NCBI GenBank assembly: GCA_964521715.1 | Contig: CAZFSS010000001.1 | Coordinates: 26,802-90,801, forward strand | Length of the DNA: 64,000 nt | Direction: 5' to 3' | Origin: an uncultured candidatus Brocadiaceae bacterium | GTDB taxonomy: Bacteria > Planctomycetota > Brocadiia > SM23-32 | Part shown: piece after piece, positions 7,560 through 27,308 of the stretch | Position numbering within the stretch: the stretch's first letter is position 1 | Layout of the letters: each line of letters begins with the position of its first letter | Notes under the pieces: model-generated | The model's input: only the letters and a program-made list of their open reading frames with translations | The model's database searches: none | Told to the model about the DNA's origin: nothing | Position numbers and translations under genes: made by a program

Positions 7560-8060
7560 GGGGGCCCTTCGCTTCCATGAGGGAGTAGGCCAGTGGCAAG
7601 CCGCCTGAGCGCATTCTAAGCATCGCCGTCCGCCTGCGCAAGGCAGCGGGGGATGGGCCCGATCTGCTCCGTGAGCGAGTGCTGCTCGACCTCGCCCACG
7701 CCTGTCCTTCGGAGCTTGAGCGGAGTGGGATCGCCGCGGGCGCTCTTCGGCCCCTGGAGCGGAAAGGGGTTCGGCGGTTGGACCCCGGCGGTCCGGGAGC
7801 GCGAGCAGCAGATCCTGGCCGAGGCCCTCGGCCTCGAGCGCGGGGCTATGGCCGAGATCGAGGCGGCGCTGGAGGCCTCAGGCGCGGAGATACCTTAACC
7901 GCCGGCTCGAAGCGCCTGAGGCGTGGCTGCCGGGCGGTTGAACAGGCCTTGACAATAGGCCGTCTTAAGTATAGACTCCCGCGCGGTTGACACCGCAGAG
8001 CCTCACAGGTTGTTCCCGTGGGCCAGCGACGGGCTGACCCTTGACCGGCGAAAGGAGGGG

Positions 8061-9251
8061 ATGGAGATGTCCAGGTGCGGATGGAGGGTGTTGGTTGGCG
8101 TAGCGGTGGCCGCACTCGCAGGGACGGCTGTGCCCGCCAGGGCTAGCGTCGTGCTGCTGGACGAGTACTGGTCGCCCGAGATCATGGTGAACGACGTGAA
8201 GATGACGGAGGTCGACACCGAGGCGACCGGCGACCCCACACAGGCCGTGGCTGGCTACTTCAGCGCGAAGCTGGAGAACACGACCGGCGCACCTAACGTG
8301 CGTTTCCGCAACGCGGCCACCGTGCGGCCAGCCGACCTGCCGCCGGATGACACGGAGGCCAGGCTCTGGTACCGAACCGACAAGTGGAACGGCAAGATGG
8401 CGCTGGAGGTCTGGCTCTACGTTCCGTCGGCCGGCCGGCCCGTGCAGATGCTGACGGCCGAGCTTGACGGAGGCGGCGAGGCCGGCCGGCTGATCGCCGA
8501 CGACCGCTGGCACCTCGCGAAGGGGCTCCTCAAGAAGGGCACGGAGTATGACGTGGCCGCTGCAGAGACAGTGCCGACTGCCGCCTTCATCTGGCTGCGC
8601 CCGAGGGAGGGCTGGGACATCGCCCACACGACCTACGTCGACCGCATCGAGGCCGTCGTCGTCAGTGGGCCGGTGAAGGACAAGCCCATGCCGGCGCCCG
8701 CCCGCCGCGTCAGGCCCCTGCCGGGCGCCCAGATCAACGCGCCCGGGCTGGTCCTGATCGAGGGCGAGAACATTGCCAAGGACCCGTTCCCTCCCGGCAG
8801 CGCCTACCTGCCGGACTACGCCGACGAGCAGAGGCTGCTGAGCAACGGCGCGTGGCTTCAGTCAGCGGAGGTGCCCGGCGCGGTGGCCGCATGGCAGTTC
8901 AGCGTCGCCGACGCCGGCCGCTACGCGCTGTGGGCGCGCGGGTTCTGGTTCCGCGGCGGGTTCCGCTGGCGCGTGGACGGGGGCGAGTGGCAGACGTCCG
9001 GCCCGGACCGGAAGATCGTGAACGCGGTCCATTACCGGGACATCGATGCCGAGGCCTGGGGCCTGCCGGCGATCACCGTCGGCTGGACGCCGCTCGGGCA
9101 GGTCACGCTGCCTGAGGGCGAACACACGCTGGAAATCGAATGCACGGAGGACGCGCTCGGCTTCGCCTTCGACTGCTGGGTGCTGGCGCGGGACGCGTTC
9201 GCCGCGCCTGGTCCGGCAGCCGCGCCGTCGGGCGAAGCACAAGCGCCGTGA
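8061..9251 (+). CDS. secreted protein with C-terminal carbohydrate-binding-like beta-sandwich domain
   Basis: ATG after aaaggagggg RBS; signal peptide MEMSRCGWRVLVGVAVAALAGTAVPARA; Trp/Gly-rich C-terminal region (AWQFSVADAGRYALWARGFWFRGGFRWRVDGGEWQ) resembling CBM-type domains. Confidence 0.6.
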   Translation: MEMSRCGWRVLVGVAVAALAGTAVPARASVVLLDEYWSPEIMVNDVKMTEVDTEATGDPTQAVAGYFSAKLENTTGAPNVRFRNAATVRPADLPPDDTEARLWYRTDKWNGKMALEVWLYVPSAGRPVQMLTAELDGGGEAGRLIADDRWHLAKGLLKKGTEYDVAAAETVPTAAFIWLRPREGWDIAHTTYVDRIEAVVVSGPVKDKPMPAPARRVRPLPGAQINAPGLVLIEGENIAKDPFPPGSAYLPDYADEQRLLSNGAWLQSAEVPGAVAAWQFSVADAGRYALWARGFWFRGGFRWRVDGGEWQTSGPDRKIVNAVHYRDIDAEAWGLPAITVGWTPLGQVTLPEGEHTLEIECTEDALGFAFDCWVLARDAFAAPGPAAAPSGEAQAP

Positions 9252-9459
9252 CGCGCAGGCAGCAGCGGCCCGGTCGTGACCAAGGACGCGGGAGGCCAGG
9301 TGACGTGGAGTTCCGCAGGCGGGTCGCAGTAGGTGCCGCAGGTCCCGATCTCGCCGCAGCGTTTTGCGCGCCGTTGACGCTTCCGCCGCCCGGCGGTAAT
9401 CTCGGAGCCTCTCTGTGGACCGGGCTCATTCCCCTTCCGTGCGAGCAGGCGAGGGCCAC

Positions 9460-10656
9460 ATGGCAGCGATCCAAGTCAGCCCGAACGGGCGTTACTTCGT
9501 GGACGATCAGGGGGAGCCTTTCTTCTGGCTGGGCGATACCCAGTGGGAGTTGTTCCGTGCCTTCACGCCCGAAGACGCCAGGACCGTGCTGGAACGCAGG
9601 AGGCAGCAGGGGTTCACGGCCATACAGATCATGATCACCGGCGTAGGCGAGGGGAAGCTGCCGAACGTGGCAGGCGAGCGGCCGTGGCTCGGGGACGATC
9701 CGTCCTCCCCCAACGAGGCCTATTTCCGCAACGTCGACCGCGTGGTCGAAGCGGCATGTGAGCTGGGCCTGATCCTGGTCCCGGGCGTGTTCCACCAGTT
9801 GCAGCGTGCCTCGATAACCACAGCCAACGCCAGGCGGTACGCCGGATGGGTGGCAGAGCGCTACGCTGAAGTGCCCAACATCGTGTGGACGATGTACCCT
9901 GCGGCCCAGGACGAGTTCATCCCCGTCCTTCGCGAGCTGGCGGCGGGCCTGCAGGAAGGGGATGGCGGCACTCATCCCATCACCGTGCATCCCGATCCCT
10001 CGCCTGCGTCCTCGAGCTTCATCCACGATGAGGAGTGGCTGGACTTCAACATGATCCAGCCGTGGCAGCGGCCCGACCTGGTCTACAGCATGGTGAGGGC
10101 GGACTACGCGCGCACGCCGGTCAAGCCCGTCGTCATGGCGGAAGCATCTTACGAAGGCGTCCGCCACGGAAGGGTTAACACCCCTCTGCTGATCCGCCAG
10201 CAGGCGTATTGGTCCTATCTGGCGGGGGGCCACCACACCTACGGCAACGGGGGCAACTGCGACTCGCCCGGCACCTGGCGGTCCTGGATCGACTCCCCGG
10301 GAGCGCGCCACGTCGGCGTTTGCCGGCAGGTGCTGATGGGATTGAGCGAGTGGTGGGGCCTCATCCCGGATCAGTCGGTCTTCGCCGCCGGAGAAGGCAG
10401 CGGGGCGACGGTCAACATGGCGGCGCGTTCTCCGACAGGCGAGTGGGCGCTCGTCTACCTGAGCAGCAGCACGACGGTGTCGGTCCGGCTGGAGCGGGTC
10501 GCTGCCGGAGCCCCGATCGCCGCGTCGTGGATCGACCCCACGACCGGCGCAAGGACGGGAATCGGCGGCGTCCCGAGCACGGGGGTCGCGCCCTTCTCGA
10601 CTCCGAGCGGATGGGAGGACGCCCTGCTGTTATTTGAGCGACTGCCTGGCGGTTGA
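9460..10656 (+). CDS. DUF4038 domain protein (GH140-like glycoside hydrolase family)
   Basis: Motif GEPFFWLGDTQWELF near the N-terminus is the DUF4038 hallmark; TIM-barrel-like hydrolase; ATG at 9460 with gagggccac upstream (the track ORF starts at 9415). Confidence 0.8.
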   Translation: MAAIQVSPNGRYFVDDQGEPFFWLGDTQWELFRAFTPEDARTVLERRRQQGFTAIQIMITGVGEGKLPNVAGERPWLGDDPSSPNEAYFRNVDRVVEAACELGLILVPGVFHQLQRASITTANARRYAGWVAERYAEVPNIVWTMYPAAQDEFIPVLRELAAGLQEGDGGTHPITVHPDPSPASSSFIHDEEWLDFNMIQPWQRPDLVYSMVRADYARTPVKPVVMAEASYEGVRHGRVNTPLLIRQQAYWSYLAGGHHTYGNGGNCDSPGTWRSWIDSPGARHVGVCRQVLMGLSEWWGLIPDQSVFAAGEGSGATVNMAARSPTGEWALVYLSSSTTVSVRLERVAAGAPIAASWIDPTTGARTGIGGVPSTGVAPFSTPSGWEDALLLFERLPGG

Positions 10657-17157: not shown

Positions 17158-17595
17158 TCAGCCGCCCTCTCGCTCCTTTATGGACTGGATAGCTTGTTCT
17201 TCGGTTTCGTTTACGTCGAAGACGCGAGTCAACCGGGTCAGCTCGAAGATGGAGCGACAGAAGGCGGGCACTTCGGCCAGGCGCAGTTCGCCGCCCTCTG
17301 CCGCCGCCCTCCGAAGGCAGCTCACGAGCGCTCCCAGGCCCGCGCTGTCGATGAAGTCCATCTTCTCCAGGTTCAGTATCAGGTTCTTTGCGCCGCCCTC
17401 GATCAGGCCGTGCAGTTCGGACTTGATCTCAGACGCCGACAGGGCGTCGAAACGCCCCTCAATGTCAACCACCGTGATGCCGTCATGCTGGCGGGTATCG
17501 CTGATCACTGGTGCAGATCCTCCGACTCGCCTGGTAAGGGAAGCGCAACCCGCTGCACCGTAATGATAAGGGCCGCCGCGCTGGTTGTCAATCAC
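17158..17595 (-). CDS. STAS-domain anti-sigma-factor antagonist (SpoIIAA-like)
   Basis: ITVVDIEGRFDALSASEIKSELHGLI...MDFIDSAGLGALVS matches the STAS/SpoIIAA fold; an internal GTG at 17506-17508 would give a more typical 116-aa product. Confidence 0.75.
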   Translation of the reverse strand: MIDNQRGGPYHYGAAGCASLTRRVGGSAPVISDTRQHDGITVVDIEGRFDALSASEIKSELHGLIEGGAKNLILNLEKMDFIDSAGLGALVSCLRRAAAEGGELRLAEVPAFCRSIFELTRLTRVFDVNETEEQAIQSIKEREGG

Positions 17596-18140
17596 CGTGC
17601 GGTTGGGGCGTGTCCTGCCGGTCGCACCGGCGCGCGTTCAGCAGGTCCAGATAGGCGCCCTCTACCAGGTCGTCCTTCCCGATCCCCATCGCCTGCATGA
17701 GCTTGCGCGCAACGGCGGCCCCCTCCTCCGGAGACTGGTCCTCGCGCACGACGACTTCGATCTCCACGAAGCAGCCCAGTCCCTCGACCTCGTCCAGGTG
17801 CACGCGCGTCTGGCCGACCATGTGGAGCGTCCTTTGCTTGCGGACCGCCCCGATGACGCCCAGGGCGCGGCGCAGCACTTCTTTGAGCGCTTCTGGAGCC
17901 TCCGTCCCGGCCAGCCAGTACGTGGACTGCCTGGGGCCCGGGGAGTCCGGTCGTTCGTAGAAGATGAGCTGCCCGCGGCCCTCGTCCTCCAGGCGCAGCT
18001 TCAGCCTGCCCGTCGGCACGCGGAAGAAGATGTCTTCGTGCTTCAGCAGGATGCCCGGCCCGCCGCTCAACTGCTCGGCCCGCTCGCGGACGGCCTCCAG
18101 GTCGCGGACGGACGCCTTCACCTCGACGTTTCGCGGCATG
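17588..18140 (-). CDS. CYTH-domain protein (class IV adenylate cyclase / CyaB-like)
   Basis: ATG at 18138-18140; MPRNVEVKASV...HEDIFFRVPTGRLKLRLEDEGRGQLIFYER...CFVEIEVV matches the CYTH (CyaB/thiamine triphosphatase) triphosphate tunnel fold; overlaps the STAS gene start. Confidence 0.75.
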
Positions 18141-18289
18141 CCGACGGCCTCCCTTGGTTGCTGTGCTTTATTCTTCGGCTGCGCCGTGGTAATGTCAACG
18201 GCCCGGCCGGTTGCCGACAATGGAGTAGGGGCGCTTCGCGAAGCGCTCCTGCGCCGCTCCTGGCCTGCAAGCATGGAGGCGCAGTGGAG

Positions 18290-19180
18290 ATGAGCGAGAC
18301 GGTGCCGTTGCTTCTGGACACGGACATCGGTTCGGACATTGACGACGCCATATGTTTGACCTACCTGCTGGCCGAGCCGCGGTGCGAGCTGCTGGGGGTG
18401 ACGACCGTGACGGGACAGCCGCGCGAGCGCGCCATGCTGGCGGACGCCGTCTGCCGGGCCGCCGGCCGCCGCGACGTGCCCATCATGAGTGGCTGCGACC
18501 GGCCGATCCTCTACCAGCAGAAGCAGCCGAAGGCGCCCCAGGCCGAAGTGCTGCCGGACTGGGACCACCGCGAGGACTTCGAGCAGTACGAGGCGGTGGA
18601 TTTCCTCCGGCGGACCATCCGTGCGCGGCCCGGCGAGGTGACGCTGCTGACCATCGGCCCGCTCACCAACGCCGGCCTGCTCTTCGCCGTGGACCCCGAG
18701 GCGGCCGGAATGCTGAAGCGACTGGTGATGATGGGCGGCTACTACTTCGAGCCGGGCGCGAACGAGTGGAATACCTCGGGCGATCCGATCGCCAGCGCCC
18801 TGGTCTTTGACGCGGACGTGCCGGAGCTCGTGGCCTTCGGGCTCGACGTGACGCTGAGGTGCAAGCTCTCCGCCGACGAGTGCCGCCGGCGTTTCCGGGG
18901 CGGGCCGTTCGACGTGGTACACCAGATGGCCGAAGTGTGGTACCGCCGCGCGGAGCACATTACGTTTCACGATCCGCTGGCCGCCGCCTGCGTCTTCGAG
19001 CCCGATCTCTGCACGTACCGGACCGGCCGCGTCACCATGGACCTCACGAAGGGGGCCACGTACGGGGTCACGCTGTTCGAGGAGGAGCCCGACGGGCCGC
19101 ACCGCGTGGCCAGGGACGTCGACGCCGCGCGGTTCTTCGATCATTACTTCAGCGTGACGGCCGTGTTCAGAGACGCGTAG
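18290..19180 (+). CDS. nucleoside hydrolase (inosine/uridine-preferring, IU-NH family)
   Basis: N-terminal fingerprint LLLDTDIGSDIDDAICLTYLL (DxDxxxDD) of IU nucleoside hydrolases; ATG at 18290 after ggag; only this 3' part of the 531-aa track ORF is coding. Confidence 0.9.
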   Translation: MSETVPLLLDTDIGSDIDDAICLTYLLAEPRCELLGVTTVTGQPRERAMLADAVCRAAGRRDVPIMSGCDRPILYQQKQPKAPQAEVLPDWDHREDFEQYEAVDFLRRTIRARPGEVTLLTIGPLTNAGLLFAVDPEAAGMLKRLVMMGGYYFEPGANEWNTSGDPIASALVFDADVPELVAFGLDVTLRCKLSADECRRRFRGGPFDVVHQMAEVWYRRAEHITFHDPLAAACVFEPDLCTYRTGRVTMDLTKGATYGVTLFEEEPDGPHRVARDVDAARFFDHYFSVTAVFRDA

Positions 19181-19314
19181 GCGCGTCCCGCCATGCTGGC
19201 AAGTGCGATCCGCTTTCGTAGGGGCACGGCGCGCCGTGCCCCTACCTCACGGAGCCAAAGGCGGCCTGCCCGGAAGCTCGGTGTTGAAGTTCCAGCGGGA
19301 ACCTGGCATTGCGT

Positions 19315-20424
19315 TCAGGTGCGCCTGCCGACGGCCCCGAGGACGGCGGCAGTGAAGGCCGTCGAGCCCTCGGTCATGTCCATTTCCGTCTGGAGCGCGT
19401 AGGCCGGGCACGCCGCAGGGAAGCCATCCCGCGCCGCCAGGGCTTCCACCTTGACGGCGTCCTTCTCGGTGGTCACGATGCGGTCGCAGCCATGCGCGTG
19501 CGCCTGCCGCAGCAGCCTCTCGATCTGCCGCGCGCTGTAACGTTCGTGGTCCGAGAACACGCGGAAGAGGGCCGGATTGCAGCCCGCCCGCCGGAGCGTC
19601 AGGCGGAATCCCTCGGGGTTGCCGATCCCGCAGAAAGCGCCCCACCGGCCCTCCGCGAGGGCATCCGGGGGCAGCGCCCTGTCGGGCGCGCGCCCCAGCG
19701 GCCGGAGCCCCTCGACCATCGTCTTGCAGAGCGCGACCGGCACGCCCGGGGCGGCTTGATTCAGCCTCCTCTTGACCTCCTGGACGTGCTCGGGGGCGAC
19801 GAGCTCCGTCCGCGTCATGACGAGGAAGTCGGCCCGCTTCAGCCCCCCCAGCGGCTCCCGCAGCAGGCCCCGCGGCAGCAGACGGCCCGCCCCGAACGGC
19901 CAGACGGCGTCAATGAGGACGACGTCCAGGTCCCGGGCGAGGCGCCGGTGCTGGAAGCCGTCATCCAGTATCAGCACGTCGGCGCCGTGCTCGCGGACGG
20001 CCGTCTCGGCGCCCTTCAGCCTGTCGGGGTTCACGACCACGGGCACGCCGTCCGCCAGCCGGGACAGCATGGCGTTCTCGTCGTCGAGCCCGAGCCCCTC
20101 GTGCCGTCCGTAGCCCCGGGACAGGATGGCCGGCCGCAGCCTGTGGATGACCATCAGCCGGGCCAGCCACGCGGCGAAGGGCGTCTTGCCCGTGCCGCCG
20201 GCCGTTATGTTGCCCACGCTCACGACGGGCGCGGCGGCCCGATGCGTCTTGAGCCAGCCGGCGCGGTAGAGGCCGTTCCTCGCCCTTACGCCGAGCCCGT
20301 AAGCGCAGGCCGCTATGCCCAGGGACACGCGGGCGGCGGCAAGCAGCGGACCCCGCCGGCGGGGGGAGATCACTGCTCTGTGGAACCGGAAAAGGCCTGC
20401 GCCCATCCTGTGCGCCCCCTCCAT
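19315..20424 (-). CDS. lpxK: tetraacyldisaccharide 4'-kinase
   Basis: P-loop VGNITAGGTGKTP and overall LpxK architecture; ATG at 20422-20424. Confidence 0.85.
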   Translation of the reverse strand: MEGAHRMGAGLFRFHRAVISPRRRGPLLAAARVSLGIAACAYGLGVRARNGLYRAGWLKTHRAAAPVVSVGNITAGGTGKTPFAAWLARLMVIHRLRPAILSRGYGRHEGLGLDDENAMLSRLADGVPVVVNPDRLKGAETAVREHGADVLILDDGFQHRRLARDLDVVLIDAVWPFGAGRLLPRGLLREPLGGLKRADFLVMTRTELVAPEHVQEVKRRLNQAAPGVPVALCKTMVEGLRPLGRAPDRALPPDALAEGRWGAFCGIGNPEGFRLTLRRAGCNPALFRVFSDHERYSARQIERLLRQAHAHGCDRIVTTEKDAVKVEALAARDGFPAACPAYALQTEMDMTEGSTAFTAAVLGAVGRRT

Positions 20425-20476
20425 GACCAGCCCGCCGCGTGACCGGGCCGAACGCCGGGCGTCCCGGCGGCGTCTC

Positions 20477-20504
20477 TTGCATGACTGCACTGTTTGCATA
20501 CAAT
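20477..20504 (+). promoter_or_regulatory. sigma-70 type promoter (TTGCAT-16-TACAAT)
   Basis: ttgcat gactgcactgtttgca tacaat, about 60 nt upstream of the 20567 start; coordinates +/-2. Confidence 0.45.
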
Positions 20505-20566
20505 ACAGCAGGCGTGCTCCTGCGGCAAGACCAGGGGCAGCCGAACCTCTGGCGGAGGACACGACG

Positions 20567-21583
20567 ATGATCAGGGTCGGAATCATAGGGCTGGGGGGCA
20601 TGGGCAACATGCATCTGGGCTGCTACGCCGCGGTCCAGGGCGCCGAGGTCGTGGCCGTGGCGGACATACGGGAGGAGAGGCTCCACGCCGGCCAGACCTC
20701 CCAGCAGATCAACATCGGCGCGGGCGGCGGCAGGCTCGATCCCGAGAAGCAGAAGCTCACCACGAACGCCGACGAGCTCATTGACGATCCGGACATCGAC
20801 ATGCTGGACATCTGCCTGCCGACGTTCCTGCACGCCGAGCACTGCAAGAAAGGGCTGCAAGCCGGCAAGCACGTCCTATGCGAGAAGCCGATGGCGCTCA
20901 CGCACCGCGAGTGCGAAGACGTGCTGAAGGTGGTCCAGGACGCCCCCGGCAAGCTGATGATCGCCCATTGCGTGCGGTTCTTCCCGGCCTACGAGTACCT
21001 GAACGAGGCGATCGAGTCCGGTCGGTTCGGCCGGCTGCTTGAGCTGTCCATGTGGCGGGGGGGCTCGCCGCCGCGCTGGTCGTGGGAGAACTGGCTCCTG
21101 AACCACGTGCGCAGCGGCGGCGGCATGCTGGACCTGCACGTGCACGACGCGGACTTCGTCCACCACGTGCTGGGCAGGCCGCGCGCCGTCTGCTCCACGG
21201 GAGCCGTGGGACCCAGCGGGGGCTACGACGCAGTGGACACCCAGTACGTCTACGAGGACAAGATGGCCGTGCGCGCCGGGGCCAACCTGGCGCTGCCGAC
21301 CGGCTTCGGCTTCGAGGCACACTTCCTGGCGGCCTTTGAGAAGGGGTGCCTGCGGTTCAGCACCGCCGAGCACGACGGGCTGATGGAGATCACCGACGAG
21401 GGCACCAGTCATCCCGGCCTGCCCGAGAAGAACGGCTACCAGGAGGAGATCGCCTACTTCGTGAGATGCATCCAGAACGACGAGGTCCCGGCCGTCGTTA
21501 CGCCCGAGTCAAGCGCCTTCTCCGTCAGGCTGATCGAGGCGGAGAGGGAATCCATCGAGACGGGCCGCTCCGTGGCGCTCTGA
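20567..21583 (+). CDS. Gfo/Idh/MocA family oxidoreductase
   Basis: Rossmann N-terminus MIRVGIIGLGGMGNMH, motif EKPMAL; GGAGG RBS 8 nt upstream. Confidence 0.9.
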   Translation: MIRVGIIGLGGMGNMHLGCYAAVQGAEVVAVADIREERLHAGQTSQQINIGAGGGRLDPEKQKLTTNADELIDDPDIDMLDICLPTFLHAEHCKKGLQAGKHVLCEKPMALTHRECEDVLKVVQDAPGKLMIAHCVRFFPAYEYLNEAIESGRFGRLLELSMWRGGSPPRWSWENWLLNHVRSGGGMLDLHVHDADFVHHVLGRPRAVCSTGAVGPSGGYDAVDTQYVYEDKMAVRAGANLALPTGFGFEAHFLAAFEKGCLRFSTAEHDGLMEITDEGTSHPGLPEKNGYQEEIAYFVRCIQNDEVPAVVTPESSAFSVRLIEAERESIETGRSVAL

Positions 21584-21601
21584 CGCGGCCCCCGTCCCCG
21601 C

Positions 21602-21835
21602 CACGGCCATCCACCACGGAGACACTGAGAACACGGAGAACGGCAACACCAGGATAAACCACTACGACACGACGAGCACAACGCAGTAATACAGGCTGTA
21701 ACGCCGTGCTCGTTGTGCCGTTGTGGTTGGCTCTCTCTGGTGCGCCGTGTTTCTGCTGTTTGTCGTTCGCCGAGGTCCCTGCCGTCTCTGCCGTTCTCGG
21801 TGCTCTCCGTGTCTCCGTGGTGAGATGTTGTCAGG
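21602..21835. repeat. copy 1 of a ~230-bp imperfect direct repeat flanking the R-M islet
   Basis: Aligns with 24373..24657 (shared cacggcca...cactgaga(c)acggag..aacggcaac..aaccactacgacacgacga.cacaacg.agtaat.caggctgtaacgccgtgctcgttgtgccgttgtggtt...ccgtctctgccgttctc.gtg.tctccgtggtg.gatgttgt); contains internal inverted repeats; coordinates approximate. Confidence 0.7.
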
Positions 21836-22151
21836 CTTCGGCCGCGCGCGCCAGGTTGAGCTCCAGCAGCTTCTCCAGTATCTCCTCGTCCGTGGTGTCG
21901 GGCTTCCAGGCCGGGTCGCCCGTCGTCGCCGCGTAGGCCGCGCAGACGGCCCCGTCCAGCTTCGCGTGTGCGTTGCGCAGCCAGGTGGGCGTCTCGTTGT
22001 AGAGGTTGGTGAGGGTCCGCTTCTTGAGGGCCTTCGCGAACGGCGGGTCCGGGACGGTGCGGGGATAGCGGACCGTGCCGATGCCGTTCTGGTCCGCGTC
22101 ATAGACGTACCGGGCCCAGGGGCCGTCTACGGAGCCGGGGAATTGGAGCAC
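21831..22151 (-). pseudogene. C-terminal remnant of a Type IIL/IIG (MmeI-like) or BREX PglX-like DNA methyltransferase
   Basis: 106-aa ORF with the characteristic C-terminal motif of these large methyltransferases: NLYNETPTWLRNAHAKLDGAVCAAYA...TDEEILEKLLELNLARA; far too short to be complete. Confidence 0.6.
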
Positions 22152-22223
22152 TTCCGCGACGGTCCACTCGGGCGGGTTGAGCCAGCGCTCGCGCAGCTCG
22201 TTCAGTTCCCGTGCGGCGAGTGT

Positions 22224-22857
22224 CTACGGCCCAATGCCGATGATGACGAGTGGGACGGGAGGGTTGTTGCGCCCGTGGCGCATTATGTTGTAGACCTCCC
22301 CCTCGAAGTACGCGATGCCGGTGGACATCAGGCGGCCGCCCTCGGGATCGCTCATCATCGCTTTCACCGGGAGAATCTCTATGCCGACGTCGATGATGCC
22401 GCCGGCGTAGAATAGCAGATGCTTGACGAACAGGTCGTAGGCGACAAACGCGTACTTGCCGAACTGTACCTCGATGGCGATTTGGTCCTTGACGAAGTCG
22501 GTCTGTTTATACGACAGGATCGGCTTCGTTACGCCGTGCTCCTCAAGGAACCTCTTCTGGTCGTCAAGGGACAGGTTCACAACTTGCTCTAACAGCTTGC
22601 GGTCAGTCGTCACGTAGTACTCGTACCGGACGCCCTGCCAGCCAGCGGCCTCGGGCCCGACTTGCGAAGCCGGCGTTCAACATGTGCGGGCTGTACAGCC
22701 TCTTCCCCTTCATCGTTTTCTCTTCGCTTACCTTCGTGCGGCACTGGTCGGCGTGTACCTGCGCGATCACGCAGTTGATTTCCCCGTAGAGACTCCGATG
22801 GTGTACGAGAAGGAACTCCTCGCCGTTCAGGTGCGAGTATACTTCGACTATCCTCAC
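22224..22857 (-). pseudogene. BglII/BstYI-family type II restriction endonuclease, split by a frameshift
   Basis: The 84-aa ORF (22603..22857, MRIVEVYSHLNGEEF...) and 129-aa ORF (22224..22613) are in different frames. The C-terminal part (KPILSYKQTDFVKDQIAIEVQFGKYAFVAYDLFVKHL...IDVGIEIL) aligns with the BglII catalytic core (DFLGTDIDFGKRDTLVEVQFSNYPFLL). Combined length of about 213 aa matches BglII (223 aa). Confidence 0.65.
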
Positions 22858-22899
22858 TGTTGGGGTCCCTCCCCGGCGGCCTGGCTTCGTCTATGATGT

Positions 22900-23793
22900 T
22901 TATGTGTCGAACAGAGAAGACGTCCGCGTGTTGCTGGCGGGCTCTTTCGGCTTGTATATGGGCTTATTCATCGGCCGAACGCGAAGTCTGCCCGCAGCCG
23001 CGGCCCTTATGCGTTCCTCCGCGATGTCGATGTACTCCTTCACTATCTCCGCACCGTGGCCGCTGCGCGCATGGCGCACAGCCGCAACGATCGTCGTCCC
23101 GACCCCAGCAAACGGATCGAAGACGGCATCCCCCGGACGAGTCATGGACAGCACGAGCCGCTCTACGAGGCCCACGGGGAACTGGCACGGATGCGCAGTC
23201 TTCTCCACATGGTTGCTCTTGACGTTCGGAATGTCCCACACGTCGCCGGGGTTCTTCCCCCGCGGGTCGCAGGAGTACTCGCCTGCCTTCGAGCCCTTGA
23301 AGTACTTCTTGCCAGGGTACTTCTGCGGGACGCGCACGGGGTCGAGATCGAAGAAGTAATCGTCGGTCTTCGTGTACCACACGATGGTCTCGTACCGGCC
23401 GGAGAAGCGGTTCTTGCAGTGCAGTCCGTGACCGAAGCGCCACACAATGCGGTTGCGCATCTTCAGACCTAAGTCCGCGAAGACCGGGTACAGCAGGGAG
23501 TCCACCGGGACGATCGCGCCGTTCTTCACATAGTTGCCGACCTGCCAGCACAGGCTGCCGTTCGGGCGCAGCACGCGCACGCACTCCGAGATGACCTGGC
23601 GCTGCTGGTCGGCGTAGCTGTCGGGGTCGATCCTGCTCTCGTACTCTTTGCCGATGTTGTACGGGGGCGAAGTAACCACAAGCTGGATGCACTCCGTCGG
23701 CATGGTGGAGAGCATCTCCAGGCAGTCCCCGTGGTACAGAGTGACAACGTTGTCGACGTGGAACGACTGAGCTATCTCGACTTGCCTGAGCAT
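22900..23793 (-). CDS. beta-class DNA methyltransferase (N4-cytosine/N6-adenine, M.BglII-like)
   Basis: Motif IV TSPPY N-terminal to motif I DPFAGVGTT (beta-class order); LYHGDCLEML N-terminus; ATG at 23791-23793 with GGAGG RBS 7 nt upstream; appears full length. Confidence 0.85.
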   Translation of the reverse strand: MLRQVEIAQSFHVDNVVTLYHGDCLEMLSTMPTECIQLVVTSPPYNIGKEYESRIDPDSYADQQRQVISECVRVLRPNGSLCWQVGNYVKNGAIVPVDSLLYPVFADLGLKMRNRIVWRFGHGLHCKNRFSGRYETIVWYTKTDDYFFDLDPVRVPQKYPGKKYFKGSKAGEYSCDPRGKNPGDVWDIPNVKSNHVEKTAHPCQFPVGLVERLVLSMTRPGDAVFDPFAGVGTTIVAAVRHARSGHGAEIVKEYIDIAEERIRAAAAGRLRVRPMNKPIYKPKEPASNTRTSSLFDT

Positions 23794-24371
23794 TCCGGCA
23801 CCTCCGAGCGCTCGGCGTTCTGCAAACGGATCGGCGTCCATTCTACCGTTCCCGTCGGCGAAAGCAACCTGCCCAACGCCGGCGCAGGCCAGGATGCTGA
23901 GCGCGGATCGGGCAGCTTGGAGAGGCGTATCTCGTGGACCTCGACGGGCGTGGCGGTGAAGTTCGTGCGGACGATGATGCGGTCCATGTCGGACACGACG
24001 AGGAGGGGCGGGTTCTCGAGGTCCTCGCGGTACTGGAGGAGCTGATCGTAGGCGGCGTCGAGGTCCTTGTGCTTGCCCTTGTGTTCCCAGGCGAAGAAGC
24101 CCTTCTTCCATACGTCGGCCCAGTCGTCGCCGCCGCCGTGCTTGGCGGCCCCCTTCTCGAAGGTGAACTACTCGCCGGTCGGGTCGGCCTCGGCGGGCTT
24201 GGGGTGGTCGACGAGCTCGCAGAGGTCGAGGAAGTGCTGCTGGGAGGCGGAGCGCTCCGAGAGATCGGCGGTGCCCCACTTCTGGATGAACCGGACGGCG
24301 TCCATGCGGATTGTGCCCTCCTCACTCCGGGCAACCCCGTGAAAGGTAACAGAACCGGCGGCCGGGGTCAA
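23772..24371 (-). pseudogene. N-terminal remnant of the same Type IIL / PglX-like DNA methyltransferase, with in-frame TAG
   Basis: Conserved N-terminal signature of MmeI/PglX-like enzymes: FIQKWGTADLSERSASQQHFLDLCELVDHPKPAEADPTGE*FTFEKGAAKHGGGDDWADVWKKGFFAWEHKGKHKDLDAAYDQLLQYREDLENPPLLVVSDMDRIIVRTNFT. The TAG at 24168-24170 replaces the Trp codon found in intact homologs; the reading frame ends at 23772. Confidence 0.6.
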
Positions 24372-24372
24372 T

Positions 24373-24657
24373 CACGGCCAGGACGGCACACCACTGAGAC
24401 ACGGAGGACACGGAGAACGGCAACGATGGGGTTAACCACTACGACACGACGAACACAACGAAGTAATGCAGGCTGTAACGCCGTGCTCGTTGTGCCGTTG
24501 TGGTTAGCTCATTCTGGTGGGCCGTCTCTCTGTTGTTCGTCGTTGCCCCAGGTATCTTCCGTCTCTGCCGTTCTCCGTGTGCTCCGTCCGGCCTTCGTAG
24601 CCGAAGCCACTTCGGCGGAGTAGGCTGTCTCCGTGGTGGGATGTTGTTGGGGGGGAC
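24373..24657. repeat. copy 2 of the ~230-bp direct repeat (carries an extra ~40-bp hairpin-containing insertion)
   Basis: Aligns with 21602..21835; extra segment ccggccttcgtagccgaagccacttcggcggagtaggctg containing the hairpin gccgaag-ccac-cttcggc; the repeat abuts the mutS stop codon (24657-24659); coordinates approximate. Confidence 0.7.
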
Positions 24658-27308
24658 TAACGGCTTTCGCGGTTCTGCTTGAGCCGCTCGATGATGTCGT
24701 TGAGCTTGTTGAGCGCTTCCAGCGGCGTCATGCCGCTCGTGTCGAGCGCGAGGAGCTCGTCCCTGACCTCCGCGTCGAGCGGCTTGAACAGCGGCATCTG
24801 GAGGTGGCGGGGCTCGGGGCCGCCAGCCCTCCTGTCGGCGGTCGACGGCTGCCTGGGGGCGAAGCGCGGCTCGTCGTTGGGCCCGACGGCGTTCTCCTCC
24901 AGGTGCTGAAGGATGTCCCGCGAGCGCTCGAGCACTTCGGCCGGCACTCCCGCCAGCCTGGCCACGTGGATGCCGTAGCTGCGGTCCGTTGCGCCAGGGA
25001 CGACGCGGTGCAGGAAGACGACCTCGTTCTGCCACTCGCGCACGGCCACGTTCAGGTTGCGCACGCCCTCGCAGACCTGTGCGAGTTGGGCCAGCTCGTG
25101 GTAGTGGGTGGCGAAGAGCGTTCTGGCGCCGATGCGATCGTGGACGTATTCGCCGGTGGCCCAGGCGATGCTGACGCCGTCGAAGGTGCTCGTGCCGCGG
25201 CCGACCTCGTCGAGGATGATGAGGCTGCGGTCGGTGGCGCTGTTGAGGATGTTGGCGACCTCGATCATCTCGACCATGAAGGTGCTCTGGCCCCGGCGCT
25301 GCTCGTCGCTGGCGCCGACGCGGGTGAAGATGCGGTCGACCAGGCCGACGGTCGCCTCGGCCGCCGGCACGAAGGAGCCAATCTGGGCCATCAGGACGAT
25401 GAGGGCCGTCTGCCGGATGTAGACGCTCTTGCCGGACATGTTCGGGCCGGTGATGACGAGAAGGCGCACCTGCTCGCCGTCCATCTCGATGTCGTTGGGC
25501 ACGAACTGCTCGTCCAGGATCCGCTCCAGCACGGGATGGCGCCCGTCCCTGATGCGCAGCGTGCGGTCCGCGGTCAGCGTGGGACGGACGTAGCCGTTCT
25601 CGTCCGCAACCGTCGCCAGCGAGACGAGCACGTCCAGGGCGGCCAGGGCTTCCGCCGTCCTCTGGAGCCTTTCGGTGTGCGAGCTGACTTGCTGGCGGAC
25701 CTGCTGGAACAGCTCGTATTCCAGCTCCTTGGCCCGCTCGCCCGCGCCCAGCACGGCGGACTCGCGATCCTTCAGCTCGGGCGTGATGTAGCGCTCGGCG
25801 TTCTTCAGCGTCTGCTTGCGGATGTAGTGCGCGGGCACCTTGTCCCGGTGGGTGTTGGTCACCTCGATGTAGTAGCCGAACACCTTGTTGAAGCCGACCT
25901 TGAGCGAGGGGATGCCGGTCCGTTCGGCCTCCTTTGCCTGGAGGTCGGCGATCCAGGTGCGGCCCTGGCGCCCGGTGCCGCGGAGCTCGTCGAGCTCCGG
26001 GTTGAATCCGTCCCGGATGATGCCGCCTTCCGTGATGACGGCGGGCGGGTCCGCCTTGATGGCGGAGGCGATCAGCCCTTCGACTTCGGGGATGGGGTCA
26101 ATGGCGGCGACCAGGTCCGCCAGCATCTGCGAGCCGACGCCGGCCGACTGCTCCTTCAGCTTGGGCAGGCGCGACAGGGATCGCCCCAGGGCGACCAGGT
26201 CCCGGGCGCCGGCGCGGGCGCAGTAGATCTTCGTCGTCAGCCGCTCGATGTCGTAAATGCTTTTGAGCTCGTTGCTTAGCGCATGGCGGCGAGGGCGGTT
26301 GCCGTGCAGTTCGGCCACGGCGTCCAGGCGCCGCTCGATCTCGTCGGCCTGGCGCAGGGGCGTAAGGAGCCAGCGCCTCAGGAGCCGCGCGCCCATCGGC
26401 GTGGACGTCCTGTCCAGCATTTGCAGGAGGCTGCCCTCCTGGCCGGCGCCGCGTATGGTATGGATGAGCTCCAGGCTGCGTTGCGTCGTGCTGTCGAGGA
26501 TCAGGTAACGCTCGCTGGCGAAGGGCTCTATCTTGCGGATGTGCCCGAGCGTGGTCTTCTGGGTCTCCTGCAGGTAGCAGAGCAGGGCGCCCGCGGCCCC
26601 GAGCGCCGGGCCCATGCCTTCGCATCCGAAGCCGTCCAGGCTGCGCGTGCCGAAGTGCCCGTTCAGCCGCCGCCGCCCGTCTTCCTGGTTGAACTCCCAC
26701 GGCGGGCGGCGCGTGATGAGGCAGCCCTCCGGCAGGCGCGCCCGGGGGGAGAGGCCGTCGCCCTCGTCCTCGCGCTCGACGCGGGGCAGGAGGCACTCAG
26801 CGGGCGAGACGCGCTGCAGGCTGTCGCCGACCGCCTCGGGGGGCACTTCTTCAACCTCGAACTTGCCGGTCGAAAGGTCGACCCAGGCCAGTCCGGCCCT
26901 GGCGTCGCCGAGCGCGACGGCCGCCAGGAAGTTATTCGAGCGGCTGTCCAGCAGGTGATCTTCGGTCAGCGTGCCGGCGGTGATAACGCGCGTGACGTCC
27001 CGCTCCACGAGCCCGGTGGCCTCCGCCGGATCCTGCACCTGCTCGCAGATGGCGACGCGGTGTCCGGCCCGGATCAGGCGCTTGATGTAGTTCTCGGCTG
27101 CGTGGTGAGGGAAGCCGGCCATGGGCACGGCGTTCTCGCCTTTCTCGCGGCTGGTCAGGGCCAGGCCGAGGTCGCGCGCGCAGACCTGCGCGTCGTCGAA
27201 GAACACCTCGTAGAAATCCCCCATGCGGAAGAGCAGGATGGCGTCCTGGTGCCTTTTCTTGAAGGCCAGGTACTGCTTCATCACGGGTGTATGGGCCGGT
27301 TTCGCCAT
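24657..27308 (-). CDS. mutS: DNA mismatch repair protein MutS
   Basis: N-terminal TPVMKQYLAFKKRH...LLFRMGDFYE, Walker A GPNMSGKS, ST..DE; full-length (~884 aa) MutS1; ATG at 27306-27308 preferred over the upstream TTG track start. Confidence 0.95.
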   Translation of the reverse strand: MAKPAHTPVMKQYLAFKKRHQDAILLFRMGDFYEVFFDDAQVCARDLGLALTSREKGENAVPMAGFPHHAAENYIKRLIRAGHRVAICEQVQDPAEATGLVERDVTRVITAGTLTEDHLLDSRSNNFLAAVALGDARAGLAWVDLSTGKFEVEEVPPEAVGDSLQRVSPAECLLPRVEREDEGDGLSPRARLPEGCLITRRPPWEFNQEDGRRRLNGHFGTRSLDGFGCEGMGPALGAAGALLCYLQETQKTTLGHIRKIEPFASERYLILDSTTQRSLELIHTIRGAGQEGSLLQMLDRTSTPMGARLLRRWLLTPLRQADEIERRLDAVAELHGNRPRRHALSNELKSIYDIERLTTKIYCARAGARDLVALGRSLSRLPKLKEQSAGVGSQMLADLVAAIDPIPEVEGLIASAIKADPPAVITEGGIIRDGFNPELDELRGTGRQGRTWIADLQAKEAERTGIPSLKVGFNKVFGYYIEVTNTHRDKVPAHYIRKQTLKNAERYITPELKDRESAVLGAGERAKELEYELFQQVRQQVSSHTERLQRTAEALAALDVLVSLATVADENGYVRPTLTADRTLRIRDGRHPVLERILDEQFVPNDIEMDGEQVRLLVITGPNMSGKSVYIRQTALIVLMAQIGSFVPAAEATVGLVDRIFTRVGASDEQRRGQSTFMVEMIEVANILNSATDRSLIILDEVGRGTSTFDGVSIAWATGEYVHDRIGARTLFATHYHELAQLAQVCEGVRNLNVAVREWQNEVVFLHRVVPGATDRSYGIHVARLAGVPAEVLERSRDILQHLEENAVGPNDEPRFAPRQPSTADRRAGGPEPRHLQMPLFKPLDAEVRDELLALDTSGMTPLEALNKLNDIIERLKQNRESR

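What the first reader, a model, noticed from the sequence alone, without database searches (positions are those of the whole stretch)
21602..24657. AT-richer ~3-kb defence islet between a Gfo/Idh/MocA oxidoreductase and mutS, bounded by 230-bp direct repeats
The segment differs from its ~68% GC surroundings. The endonuclease and methyltransferase genes contain AT-rich runs such as gtctgtttatacgacaggat and caacttgctctaacagcttg. All of its ORFs are on the minus strand, and all belong to restriction-modification or BREX-type functions. They are two remnants of a PglX/MmeI-like methyltransferase, a frameshifted BglII-like endonuclease and a beta-class methyltransferase. The unit sits exactly between the stop codons of two unrelated housekeeping genes and is flanked by two copies of a ~230-bp repeat. 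This pattern suggests a horizontally acquired defence cassette now decaying, with only a probable orphan methyltransferase left intact. There is no integrase or transposase inside, so the mobilisation mechanism is not obvious.
Basis: partly seen in the sequence, partly recalled or inferred. Interest (0 to 1): 0.8.

Follow-up and report, generated by a model that had tools for sequence, protein, structure and literature searches.

The report
Restriction genes nested between palindromic repeats
A 3-kb gap between two housekeeping genes of a planctomycete holds the wreck of one restriction-modification gene whose middle was replaced by a second, foreign restriction-modification pair (now only a lone methylase works), and the unit sits between two copies of a hairpin-forming repeat that marks a site where related genomes gain and lose such genes.

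Summary
Two copies of a ~240-bp repeat (83% identical) bracket window 21,595-24,647. All islet genes are on the minus strand and no integrase or transposase is present.

The islet is not one decaying cassette but two nested layers.

Layer 1 is an MmeI-family Type IIG gene, not BREX. Only codons 1-136 and 850-976 remain. These arms have host-like composition and host-like divergence. A relative with 88% identical mutS carries the full-length gene at the same site, also between two repeats.

Layer 2 is a 1.68-kb cassette at 22,218-23,900: promoter-like motif, m4C-type beta-class methylase and a BstYI-like endonuclease. It replaced 2.1 kb of the MmeI gene and alone accounts for the low GC. The endonuclease has one +1 frameshift, which leaves a solitary methylase.

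The repeat is a dispersed, hairpin-forming intergenic element. At two loci, occupied sites carry two copies and empty sites carry one. This points to integrase-free gain and loss by recombination at the repeat.

The MmeI-arm / M-R / MmeI-arm composite recurs in three other contigs, at two or more other loci. Arms are 81-97% identical across the closely related genomes; cores are about 70%.

This is a new variant of known RM-mobility patterns, of moderate interest.

The parts
20567..21583 (+). Gfo/Idh/MocA oxidoreductase (338 aa). Conserved left flank, convergent with mutS.
   Evidence: Pfam GFO_IDH_MocA 3.3e-25. The same neighbour of mutS is seen in L081, L083, L085, L087 and L094.
21595..21831 (.). 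Left copy of the palindromic intergenic repeat (237 nt; TIR CACCACGGAGACACTGAGAACACGGAGAACGGCA). It abuts the MmeI stop codon.
   Evidence: (DNA fold z = -8.1).
21831..22217 (-). C-terminal arm of an MmeI-family Type IIG gene (codons 850-976 plus TGA stop).
   Evidence: tblastn to the L081 full-length gene: 82% aa identity. nt identity 85%. Pfam MmeI_C weak. GC3 0.92.
22224..22857 (-). BstYI/BglII-family Type IIP endonuclease pseudogene (634 nt). A net +1 nt lies within 22657-22670; the rest is intact.
   Evidence: Pfam Endonuc-BglII 2.2e-24. Alignment with four intact homologs of 209-213 aa. The frame switch is located by tblastn. The same frameshift occurs in Logan contigs L108/L109. The intact L111 homolog (71% aa identical) matches BstYI (PDB 1sdo) at 4.5e-70.
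22900..23793 (-). Intact beta-class N4/N6 DNA methyltransferase (297 aa). Motif IV (TSPPY) precedes motif I (FDPFAGVGTT). Predicted m4C methylase, cognate to the endonuclease.
   Evidence: Pfam N6_N4_Mtase 2.8e-52. Database entry P0121 is 100% identical over 297 aa. PADLOC MTase_II 9e-88. PDB M.RsrI 1.6e-38. Motif order is read from the sequence.
23840..23867 (-). Promoter-like motif TTGCTT-16 nt-TAGAAT upstream of the methylase. An equivalent TTGCT(A/T)-16 nt-TACAAT motif sits upstream of the methylase start in L111, L114 and L110, and in the cassette leader of L095.
   Evidence: Read from the alignments. It does not pass the tool's sigma-70 criteria, so it is an inference.
22218..23900 (-). 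The foreign cassette as a whole (promoter-M-R, 1683 bp). It replaces 2142 bp of the MmeI gene (L081 13405-15546).
   Evidence: blastn breakpoints. Junction alignments. GC 0.605, the lowest in the window.
23898..24305 (-). N-terminal arm of the MmeI-family gene (codons 1-136). It keeps the D-X9-E-X-K nuclease motif and carries a TGG-to-TAG nonsense mutation at codon 46 (24168-24170).
   Evidence: tblastn 83% aa identity to L081. The translation is and the codon check. GC3 0.95.
24306..24371 (-). Leader/upstream region of the MmeI gene (GTGATTGACC...). It is conserved in L081, L095, L111 and L114.
24372..24647 (.). Right copy of the palindromic repeat (276 nt), with a 39-nt hairpin-forming insertion at 24588-24626.
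   Evidence: (z = -6.5).
24657..27308 (-). mutS (883 aa). Conserved right flank.
   Evidence: P0001 is 100% identical; Pfam MutS_I-V.

Best explanation
The islet is a two-layer wreck of restriction-modification genes sitting in a recombination-prone intergenic hotspot.

Layer 1. An MmeI-family Type IIG enzyme gene (nuclease and methylase in one polypeptide) lay between mutS and the oxidoreductase before this genome and the L081 relative diverged. It sits between two direct copies of a dispersed, hairpin-forming palindromic element. Genomes without the gene keep a single copy. The module 'one repeat + gene' is therefore gained and lost without an integrase, by recombination within the repeat. 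The route could be a single crossover of a circle into a resident copy with deletion by crossover between the two copies, or the related 'insertion with long target duplication'.

Layer 2. A compositionally foreign 1.68-kb cassette with its own promoter-like motif replaced the central 2.1 kb of the MmeI gene. It encodes an SPPY-type (probably m4C) beta-class methylase and a BstYI-like (probably RGATCY) endonuclease. This destroyed the resident system. The same arm-core-arm composite occurs in other related genomes at other repeat-bounded loci. It most likely spreads as a unit, by homologous recombination through the conserved MmeI ends or together with the repeat-bounded module.

Layer 3. In this genome the endonuclease then took a single +1 frameshift. 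Today the locus can only methylate; it behaves as an orphan methylase.

Shown: anatomy, breakpoints, synteny, empty and occupied sites, composition, the frameshift.
Inferred: the recombination mechanisms, the order of events, the recognition sequence, and expression.
For: Layer 1: the MmeI gene and the repeats
- L081 (mutS 88% nt identical) has mutS - repeat - full-length MmeI-like gene - repeat - oxidoreductase - lpxK.
- The window keeps only codons 1-136 and 850-976 of that gene, at 82-83% aa identity. Over the N-arm coding region nt identity is about 88%, against 88.2% for mutS and 86.2% for the oxidoreductase.
- The arms have host-like GC3 of 0.92-0.95.
- The intact ortholog matches PADLOC REase_MTase_IIG at 9e-279 over its full length, and Pfam MmeI_hel, MmeI_Mtase, MmeI_TRD and MmeI_C.

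Empty and occupied sites
- L094 (mutS 88% to the window, 93-96% to L081/L095) has oxidoreductase - one ~290-bp repeat - mutS.
- The mutS-side part of that single repeat matches the mutS-side copy in L081. Its oxidoreductase-side end matches the other L081 copy.
- Second locus: L111 has AP_endonuc_2 - repeat - [MmeI aa1-69, M, R, MmeI aa847-976] - repeat - CsgG-like. L099 and L107, from two other samples, have a single repeat there. The L111 insertion spans 7486-10155.
- More distant relatives (mutS 78-80% nt) have mutS next to the oxidoreductase with a 74-98-bp spacer and no such repeat.

The repeat family
- A metagenome scan and nhmmer found it at about ten loci, always intergenic, between housekeeping genes: sulfatase, mutY-like, gatC, an aconitase-family gene, tgt/queA and others.
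- Hairpin potential is a property of the whole family.
- In the window it occurs only at the two islet borders. The two window copies are each other's closest relatives (144 bits, against 78 bits or less to any other copy).

Layer 2: the cassette
- GC is 0.605, the lowest in the window, and the tetranucleotide distance is the highest.
- Homologous cassettes are AT-richer than their hosts in all five contigs examined.
- The composite recurs in L111, L114 and L110 with intact endonucleases. L095 carries the L111-type N-arm junction and leader at the mutS locus, followed by different cargo.
- Between the window and L111, arms are 91.5% and 80.6% identical while M is 71.7% and R 70.6%.

Layer 3: the frameshift
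- The window endonuclease gene is 634 nt, where four intact homologs have in-frame genes of 630-642 nt.
- The same frameshift occurs in Logan contigs L108 and L109.
- The intact L111 homolog matches BstYI at 4.5e-70, and the DFVKD-x-VAIEVQFGKY active-site block is the same.
Against: - The window's two repeat copies resemble each other more than they resemble the positionally equivalent copies in L081. This needs either gene conversion or independent insertions in the two lineages.
- No circular or excision intermediate has been seen.
- A single-repeat empty site is predicted equally by deletion and by insertion, so the direction of events cannot be told.
- The left junctions of the composites differ (MmeI codon 136 in the window, about 69 in L111/L095/L114, about 51 in L110). 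The non-MmeI leaders upstream of the -35 element are not alignable between the window and L111. One ancestral composite therefore needs secondary deletions.
- Arm identity to L081 shows no clear gradient towards the junctions, although recent arm-mediated crossovers would predict one.
- Recognition sequence, methylation type and promoter activity are all untested. The promoter motif fails the consensus scan.
- RGATCY is only modestly depleted in the window: 47 sites against 68 +/- 7 expected.
- Copy number of the repeat in the source genome is unknown, because only 64 kb was seen.
Confidence: 0.6

Rival explanations
1. The whole ~3-kb unit (MmeI remnants + M + R) arrived in one horizontal event, delimited by the 230-bp repeats, and has since decayed in place.
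For: The unit is bounded by the repeats and lies exactly between two stop codons. The same arm-M-R-arm composite, also flanked by repeats, occurs at another locus in L111 and in L114. A pre-formed composite can therefore move as a unit.
Against: - Only 22218-23900 is compositionally foreign; the arms have host-like GC3.
- The arms diverge from the intact L081 gene at the same locus about as much as mutS and the oxidoreductase do.
- The window's M-R core is only about 70% identical to every other cassette found, while the arms are 81-92% identical to those of L081 and L111.
Confidence: 0.2
2. Non-homologous 'insertion with long target duplication' (Nobusato 2000; Furuta 2010). The MmeI gene inserted once beside or into a pre-existing single palindromic element and duplicated about 230 bp of target. 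The dispersed nature of the element plays no part.
For: - Long direct repeats, no mobility genes, and a one-copy empty site match the class as described in PMC2853133.
- The window copies are each other's nearest relatives.
Against: - The same pattern occurs at a second locus with the same repeat family.
- The L111-type N-arm, junction and leader module is found at two different repeat-bearing loci (L095 and L111). This implicates the repeat itself rather than an arbitrary target.
- Furuta et al. treat high-copy repeats as a separate case.
Confidence: 0.2
3. Composite-transposon model. The two palindromic elements are MITEs, and a transposase encoded elsewhere moves 'MITE-gene-MITE' as a unit, as described for MITE-flanked integron mobilisation units.
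For: Each element has 34-nt terminal inverted repeats, no coding capacity and dispersed copies.
Against: - Empty sites at both loci keep one element. A composite transposon should leave or find a naive site without one.
- By eye, there is no direct target-site duplication outside the pair.
- No transposase lies in the 64-kb window near the islet.
Confidence: 0.1
4. The repeats have nothing to do with mobility. They are structural or regulatory elements, for example bidirectional terminators, that colonise intergenic spacers. Inserting a gene made two spacers, and each was colonised.
For: The element is always intergenic and often lies between convergent or tandem housekeeping genes. It forms strong hairpins.
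Against: - In 64 kb the only two copies are the two islet borders.
- They are each other's closest relatives.
- Two loci show the pattern of one copy when empty and two when occupied. The outer ends of the two copies are orthologous to the two ends of the single copy.
Confidence: 0.1

Closest known systems
RM gene units inserted with long target duplication, and allelic substitution of RM systems (Nobusato et al. 2000; Furuta, Abe and Kobayashi 2010, PMC2853133)
   Same: An RM unit without mobility genes is flanked by long direct repeats, and the empty site in a related genome holds one copy. One RM system is substituted by another at the same locus (for the definitions; for the data here).
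   Different: Here the duplicated sequence is a dispersed palindromic element, not unique target DNA, and it is used at two or more loci. The substitution happened inside the reading frame of the earlier RM gene and left both of its ends.
BstYI (R^GATCY) / BglII-family Type IIP R-M systems
   Same: The intact L111 homolog (71% aa identical to the window's reconstructed endonuclease) aligns end to end with BstYI (PDB 1sdo, 4.5e-70) and has an identical active-site block. A beta-class PF01555 methylase lies directly upstream.
   Different: The window's endonuclease gene is frameshifted. Specificity and m4C chemistry are predicted only.
MmeI-family Type IIG/IIL restriction-modification enzymes
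   Same: The ortholog in L081 has the MmeI_hel, MmeI_Mtase, MmeI_TRD and MmeI_C domains, an N-terminal D-X9-EXK motif, and a full-length PADLOC IIG match.
   Different: In the window only 136 N-terminal and 127 C-terminal codons remain, with a nonsense codon in the N-arm. The L081 copy is itself frameshifted by a 35-bp tandem duplication.
Neisseria 'minimal mobile elements' and repeat-rich intergenic arrays (my own knowledge; papers surfaced but not read in detail)
   Same: Integrase-free exchange of small cassettes, including RM genes, between conserved flanking genes by homologous recombination, in repeat-rich intergenic regions.
   Different: In minimal mobile elements the homology lies in the flanking core genes. 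Here the evidence points to a dispersed palindromic repeat and possibly to the ends of the older RM gene. Natural competence of this planctomycete is unknown.
MITE / REPIN-type palindromic intergenic repeats
   Same: Length 130-300 nt, non-coding, with terminal inverted repeats, a long hairpin, and many dispersed intergenic copies.
   Different: No target-site duplication and no partner transposase or RAYT has been identified. The arms are built from 8-9-nt sub-repeats (CACGGAGA-).
Solitary (orphan) methyltransferases derived from decayed R-M systems
   Same: Intact M next to a frameshifted R.
   Different: The loss is very recent: a single indel, with the rest of R intact. It is not a conserved, long-lived orphan.

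Membership tests
BglII/BstYI-family Type IIP R-M system | Endonuclease with the BglII/BstYI fold and family signature | tested here: met
   Pfam Endonuc-BglII 2.2e-24 over profile positions 1-162 of 163. The intact L111 homolog matches BstYI 1sdo at 4.5e-70 over its full length. PADLOC REase_II 6.9e-74.
BglII/BstYI-family Type IIP R-M system | Catalytic block D...E-x-Q conserved | tested here: met
   The window has DFVKDQIAIEVQFGKY. BstYI has DFVKDRVAIEVQFGKY in the alignment.
BglII/BstYI-family Type IIP R-M system | Uninterrupted endonuclease reading frame (a functional R) | tested here: not met
   The gene is 634 nt, with a net +1 nt within 22657-22670 relative to four intact homologs. The same is seen in L108 and L109.
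BglII/BstYI-family Type IIP R-M system | Adjacent cognate methyltransferase | tested here: met
   A PF01555 methylase lies 42 nt upstream of R on the same strand. The same M-R order is seen in L110, L111, L112 and L114.
BglII/BstYI-family Type IIP R-M system | Recognition of RGATCY (or AGATCT) and m4C protection | not testable with these tools
   The only indirect evidence is the SPPY motif IV and similarity to BstYI. RGATCY occurs 47 times against 68 +/- 7 expected.
MmeI-family Type IIG/IIL enzyme | Single polypeptide with N-terminal PD-ExK nuclease, helical spacer, gamma-class N6A methylase, TRD and C-terminal domain | tested here: not met
   The window keeps only codons 1-136 and 850-976. 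The L081 ortholog has all the domains. The window locus is a remnant, not a member in working order.
BREX (PglX methyltransferase) | A PglX-type profile match, with the partner genes pglZ, brxC and brxA/B/L in the neighbourhood | tested here: not met
   PADLOC's best hit is REase_MTase_IIG at 9e-279, and no PglX model is listed. The neighbours in the window and in L081 are mutS, rplM, rpsI, an oxidoreductase and lpxK.
[quoted passage not shown] | RM unit under 20 kb flanked by direct repeats over 30 bp, with no linked mobility genes | tested here: met
   Repeats of 237 and 276 nt, 83% identical; a 3-kb unit; no integrase or transposase.
[quoted passage not shown] | The related genome has one copy of the repeated sequence at the empty site | tested here: met
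   L094 for the mutS locus; L099 and L107 for the L111 locus.
[quoted passage not shown] | The duplicated sequence is local target DNA, not a multi-copy genomic repeat | tested here: not met
   The repeat family occurs at about ten other loci in related contigs.
MITE / REPIN-like element | Short, non-coding, terminal inverted repeats, dispersed copies | tested here: met
MITE / REPIN-like element | Target-site duplication and a cognate transposase or RAYT in the genome | tested here: inconclusive
   No obvious target-site duplication at the element ends. Only 64 kb of the source genome was available, so a transposase elsewhere cannot be excluded.

The most novel reading that the evidence does not exclude
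The BstYI-like M-R cassette may be a 'homology-armed' selfish element. It carries the conserved N- and C-terminal ends of MmeI-family genes. It uses them to recombine into resident MmeI-type genes of new hosts, which installs the cassette and knocks out a competing restriction system. The resulting module then hops between intergenic sites through a dispersed palindromic repeat, all without any dedicated recombinase.

This would explain three observations:
- The arm-core-arm composite is found at three or more loci.
- The arms track the host lineage (81-97% identity) while the cores are about 70% identical and star-like, including a non-nested cassette (L112).
- The right junction falls within codons 847-853 in three of the four composites.
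Probability: 0.3. Interest if true: 0.65.

Novelty: new variant of a known kind. Interest (0 to 1): 0.45.

Why it matters
The locus gives a clean, multi-genome snapshot of defence-gene turnover in Planctomycetota, a phylum where mobile-element biology is barely described. In four near relatives the mutS-oxidoreductase spacer is in four different states:
- empty;
- carrying an almost intact Type IIG gene (one late frameshift);
- Type IIG gene hollowed out by a Type IIP system;
- Type IIG stub followed by other cargo.

It points to a testable integrase-free route for moving defence genes, namely recombination at a dispersed hairpin repeat. It also shows one restriction system displacing another from within its own reading frame. 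If arm-mediated spread is confirmed, it would be a concrete mechanism for competition between restriction systems. On the practical side, it predicts an m4C RGATCY methylome signature from a newly orphaned methylase.

Tried and rejected
- Exact look-up of the window's own MutS failed twice, so the source record could not be retrieved. Close relatives were reached instead through the search for homologous proteins and the look-up of encoding contigs.
- Rfam at gathering thresholds and tRNA scans of the whole window found nothing. There is no tRNA attachment site and no known RNA family in the repeats.
- The sigma-70 consensus scan found no promoter in the islet. The conserved TTGCT(A/T)-16 nt-TA(C/G)AAT motif is my own reading.
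- I looked for a gradient of arm identity towards the junctions, which recent arm-mediated crossovers would predict. No clear gradient was seen.
- I looked for target-site duplications outside the repeat pair, as a composite transposon would leave. None was evident.
- RGATCY avoidance as evidence of specificity is only modest, 47 sites against 68 +/- 7, and GATC palindromes are often depleted anyway.
- The BREX reading was rejected. An assembly artefact for the frameshift and junction was rejected, because Logan contigs L108 and L109 (from runs ERR4334733 and ERR4334734) reproduce both. I could not establish whether these runs are independent of the data behind the window's own assembly.
- A search with the C-arm returned only short fragments. 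Their genomic contexts could not be inspected because the look-ups were exhausted.

Full report
1. THE OBSERVATION

The described features are all present.

A direct repeat occupies 21595-21810 and 24372-24587 at 83% identity. It resumes at 21810-21831 and 24626-24647 at 95% identity, after a 39-nt insertion in the right copy. Motif searches and nhmmer find no other copy in the 64-kb window. Each copy is itself a long imperfect palindrome with 34-nt terminal inverted repeats (CACCACGGAGACACTGAGAACACGGAGAACGGCA). Folding energies lie far below those of shuffled sequence, with z = -8.1 and -6.5.

The unit lies between the stop codons of two convergent genes. One is a Gfo/Idh/MocA oxidoreductase (20567-21583, +). 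The other is mutS (27308-24657, -).

GC drops to 0.575, against about 0.68 in the flanks. There is no tRNA and no Rfam family in the window.

2. ANATOMY

Three-frame translation of the minus strand, Pfam and comparison with relatives give the following order, read from mutS towards the oxidoreductase:
- the right repeat;
- a 66-nt leader;
- codons 1-136 of an MmeI-family gene (24305-23898), with a TGG-to-TAG nonsense mutation at codon 46;
- a promoter-like TTGCTT-16 nt-TAGAAT motif (23867-23840);
- a 297-aa methyltransferase (23793-22900);
- a BglII/BstYI-family endonuclease gene (22857-22224);
- codons 850-976 of the MmeI-family gene, starting seven bases after the endonuclease stop codon (22217-21831);
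- the left repeat.

The methyltransferase belongs to PF01555. Its motif IV (TSPPY) precedes motif I (FDPFAGVGTT), which is the beta-class order. The serine in motif IV is typical of N4-cytosine enzymes; that point rests on established knowledge and was not tested here.

The endonuclease gene is 634 nt long, whereas four intact homologs have in-frame genes of 630-642 nt. The extra base lies within 22657-22670. Two short-read contigs from runs ERR4334733 and ERR4334734 carry the identical methylase, the same junction with the MmeI N-arm, and the same frameshift. Neither the junction nor the frameshift is therefore an artefact of one assembly.

The 459-aa ORF at 22900-24279 is an out-of-frame read-through across the N-arm, not a gene.

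3. WHAT THE GENES ARE

The intact L111 homolog of the endonuclease (71% aa identical to the window's reconstructed protein) aligns end to end with BstYI (R^GATCY; PDB 1sdo, E = 4.5e-70). The active-site block is the same. The cassette is therefore best described as BstYI-like rather than BglII-like.

The full-length relative of the two 'PglX/MmeI' remnants has the Pfam domains MmeI_hel, MmeI_Mtase, MmeI_TRD and MmeI_C. It matches PADLOC's Type IIG REase-MTase model over its whole length (9e-279) and gives no PglX hit. Its N-terminus, and the window's N-arm, keep a D-X9-E-X-K nuclease motif; this is read from the sequence. No BREX partner genes are nearby. The BREX reading is rejected.

4. ONLY THE INNER 1.68 KB IS FOREIGN

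The segment 22218-23900 has GC 0.605. That is the lowest of 1247 sliding windows of the same size, and its tetranucleotide distance is the largest of 312 windows. GC3 is 0.84 for M and 0.79-0.83 for R.

The MmeI arms have GC3 of 0.92-0.95, the same as mutS and the oxidoreductase.

Homologous cassettes in four other contigs are likewise 6-12 GC points below their hosts. The intact MmeI gene of L081 (0.663) matches its host (0.678).

5. RELATED GENOMES: THE LOCUS IS A TURNOVER HOTSPOT

MutS homologs and contig look-ups gave the context in relatives.

L081 has mutS 88.2% nt identical to the window's. Its order is mutS - repeat - MmeI-family gene - repeat - oxidoreductase - lpxK. The MmeI gene is 979 codons long once a 35-bp tandem duplication that frameshifts it is removed. 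The window's arms align to the ends of this gene, and 2142 bp of it are replaced by the 1683-bp cassette. Arm identity is about 85-88% nt, similar to mutS (88.2%) and the oxidoreductase (86.2%). The MmeI gene was therefore most probably already at this site in the common ancestor.

L094 has mutS 88% identical to the window and 93-96% identical to L081 and L095. The mutS-side part of that single repeat matches the mutS-side copy in L081. Its other end matches the oxidoreductase-side copy.

L095 is a near relative of L094. It has mutS - repeat - MmeI codons 1-72 - an M-R-type leader - unrelated cargo, including a 348-aa zinc-ribbon membrane protein.

More distant relatives (mutS 78-80% nt) have mutS directly next to the oxidoreductase. 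The spacer is either 74-98 bp with no repeat, or holds a different repeat family.

6. THE REPEAT IS A DISPERSED PALINDROMIC ELEMENT

A metagenome scan with a 21-mer from the inner arm returned 20 contigs. nhmmer confirmed whole elements in about 14 high-GC contigs. All copies are intergenic. The flanking genes include a sulfatase, an enolase-family gene next to a mutY-like gene, gatC next to an IMP-cyclohydrolase-like gene, an aconitase-family gene, tgt/queA, and a Gfo-family gene next to a xylose-isomerase-like gene. Strong hairpin potential is a property of the family.

The element is therefore not private to the islet. Even so, the only two copies in the window are the islet borders, and they are each other's closest relatives.

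7. A SECOND LOCUS SHOWS THE SAME LOGIC

Contigs carrying the closest methylase homologs were inspected.

L111 has the order AP_endonuclease-2-family gene - repeat - MmeI codons 1-69 - promoter-M-R (R intact) - MmeI codons 847-976 - repeat - CsgG-like gene. Two contigs from other samples, L099 and L107, have the same flanking genes at 88-94% identity, with a single repeat in place of the 2.67-kb insertion.

L114 is a further composite. It has repeats on both sides, MmeI codons 1-67 and 925-979, and an intact M-R pair.

L110 comes from a more distant, 71%-GC organism. It has MmeI codons 1-51 and 853-974 around an intact M-R pair, at yet another locus.

L112 has the M-R pair with no MmeI arms.

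The arm-core-arm composite is thus recurrent and mobile. The L111-type N-arm, junction and leader module occurs at two different repeat-bearing loci, in L095 and in L111.

8. ARMS AND CORES HAVE DIFFERENT HISTORIES

Between the window and L111, the N-arm is 91.5% identical and the C-arm 80.6%, but M is 71.7% and R 70.6%.

The cores of the window, of L111/L114, of L110 and of the non-nested L112 are all 67-74% identical to one another. The L111 arms are 97% and 93% identical to the intact L081 gene.

Pseudogene arms that are better conserved than the working genes between them cannot come from simple co-inheritance. Recombination must have happened in the arms. It could have been allelic replacement of resident MmeI genes by incoming composites, or gene conversion from intact copies.

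In three of the four composites the right junction falls within codons 847-853; in L114 it lies at codon 925. The left junctions differ (codons 136, about 69, about 51), which calls for secondary deletions or more than one event. I found no clear gradient of identity towards the junctions. The arm-mediated mechanism therefore remains an inference.

9. MOST LIKELY MECHANISM

Shown:
- the anatomy, the breakpoints and the foreign composition of the core;
- the orthology of the arms;
- one-repeat empty sites and two-repeat occupied sites at two loci;
- the recurrence of the composite;
- the single frameshift in R.

Inferred:
(a) The module 'one repeat + MmeI gene' enters and leaves by recombination within the dispersed repeat. 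This could be Campbell-type homologous recombination or the related 'long target duplication' process of Furuta et al. (PMC2853133).
(b) The M-R cassette displaced the middle of the MmeI gene and spreads with or through the MmeI arms.
(c) The endonuclease was lost very recently, leaving a solitary, probably m4C RGATCY methylase.

RGATCY is modestly under-represented in the window: 47 sites against 68 +/- 7 expected.

10. COMPARISON WITH KNOWN SYSTEMS, AND VERDICT

Every component belongs to a known kind:
- BstYI-family Type IIP systems, which also occur on small plasmids and Burkholderia phages at about 50% identity;
- MmeI-family Type IIG enzymes;
- RM units flanked by long direct repeats, and allelic RM substitution;
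- MITE/REPIN-like elements;
- orphan methylases.

Three things go beyond the described cases. The duplicated sequence is a dispersed hairpin element that is reused at several loci. One RM system is nested inside the reading frame of another as a recurrent, mobile composite. The histories of arms and cores disagree.

I rate the finding a new variant of a known kind, with moderate interest (0.45).

Noticed in passing
L081:15600-15690: The otherwise full-length MmeI-family gene of the closest relative carries a 35-bp tandem duplication (GGAGTTCCCCGGCTCCATCGACGGCCCC...) that frameshifts it at about codon 884. The 'intact' allele is therefore also decaying, or phase-variable.
   Followed up: partly
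L087:6705-7110 and L086:12660-13027: In a relative with mutS 80% nt identical to the window's, the same mutS-oxidoreductase spacer holds a different repeat family. It has about three tandem ~120-bp units whose arms are built from 9-nt sub-repeats (GGACAGGAT GAACAGGAT / ATCCTGCCTATCCTGTATATCCTGTT). The architecture resembles the window's element but the sequence is unrelated. One contig ends inside it.
   Followed up: no
window 24588-24626; L095:8004-8030; L114:2290-2315: Some copies of the palindromic element carry a short extra hairpin-forming insert at the same point inside the terminal inverted repeat. The insert sequence differs from copy to copy.
   Followed up: no
window 17521-25516: The longest RGATCY-free stretch in the window (8.0 kb) spans the islet and its flanks. 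About 6-8 sites would be expected there. Across the window, RGATCY occurs 47 times against 68 +/- 7 in shuffles.
   Followed up: partly
L095:8560-10091: At the mutS locus of this relative, the MmeI N-arm and the M-R-type leader/promoter are followed not by M-R but by unrelated DNA. That DNA encodes a 348-aa zinc-ribbon, multi-pass membrane protein with no Pfam hit. It may be another defence cargo.
   Followed up: partly
protein database: A search with the 130-aa MmeI C-arm returned 1176 hits. The best 120 are all short proteins of 105-227 aa carrying only MmeI_C and/or MmeI_TRD. Several lie on contigs of 200-870 kb. Truncated C-terminal stubs of MmeI-family genes may be common. Their contexts could not be checked.
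   Followed up: no
L110:6500-7300: Downstream of the L110 composite there are about four tandem copies of a ~200-bp GC-rich repeat (GGCTTCCACAGCCGAGGCGGCTGTGCTACAC...). It is unrelated to the window's element.
   Followed up: no
window 22224-22226 / 22217: In the window and in L110 the MmeI C-arm is in the same reading frame as the endonuclease, 2 and 5 codons respectively after its TAG stop. It is not in frame in L111. This is probably coincidental.
   Followed up: partly
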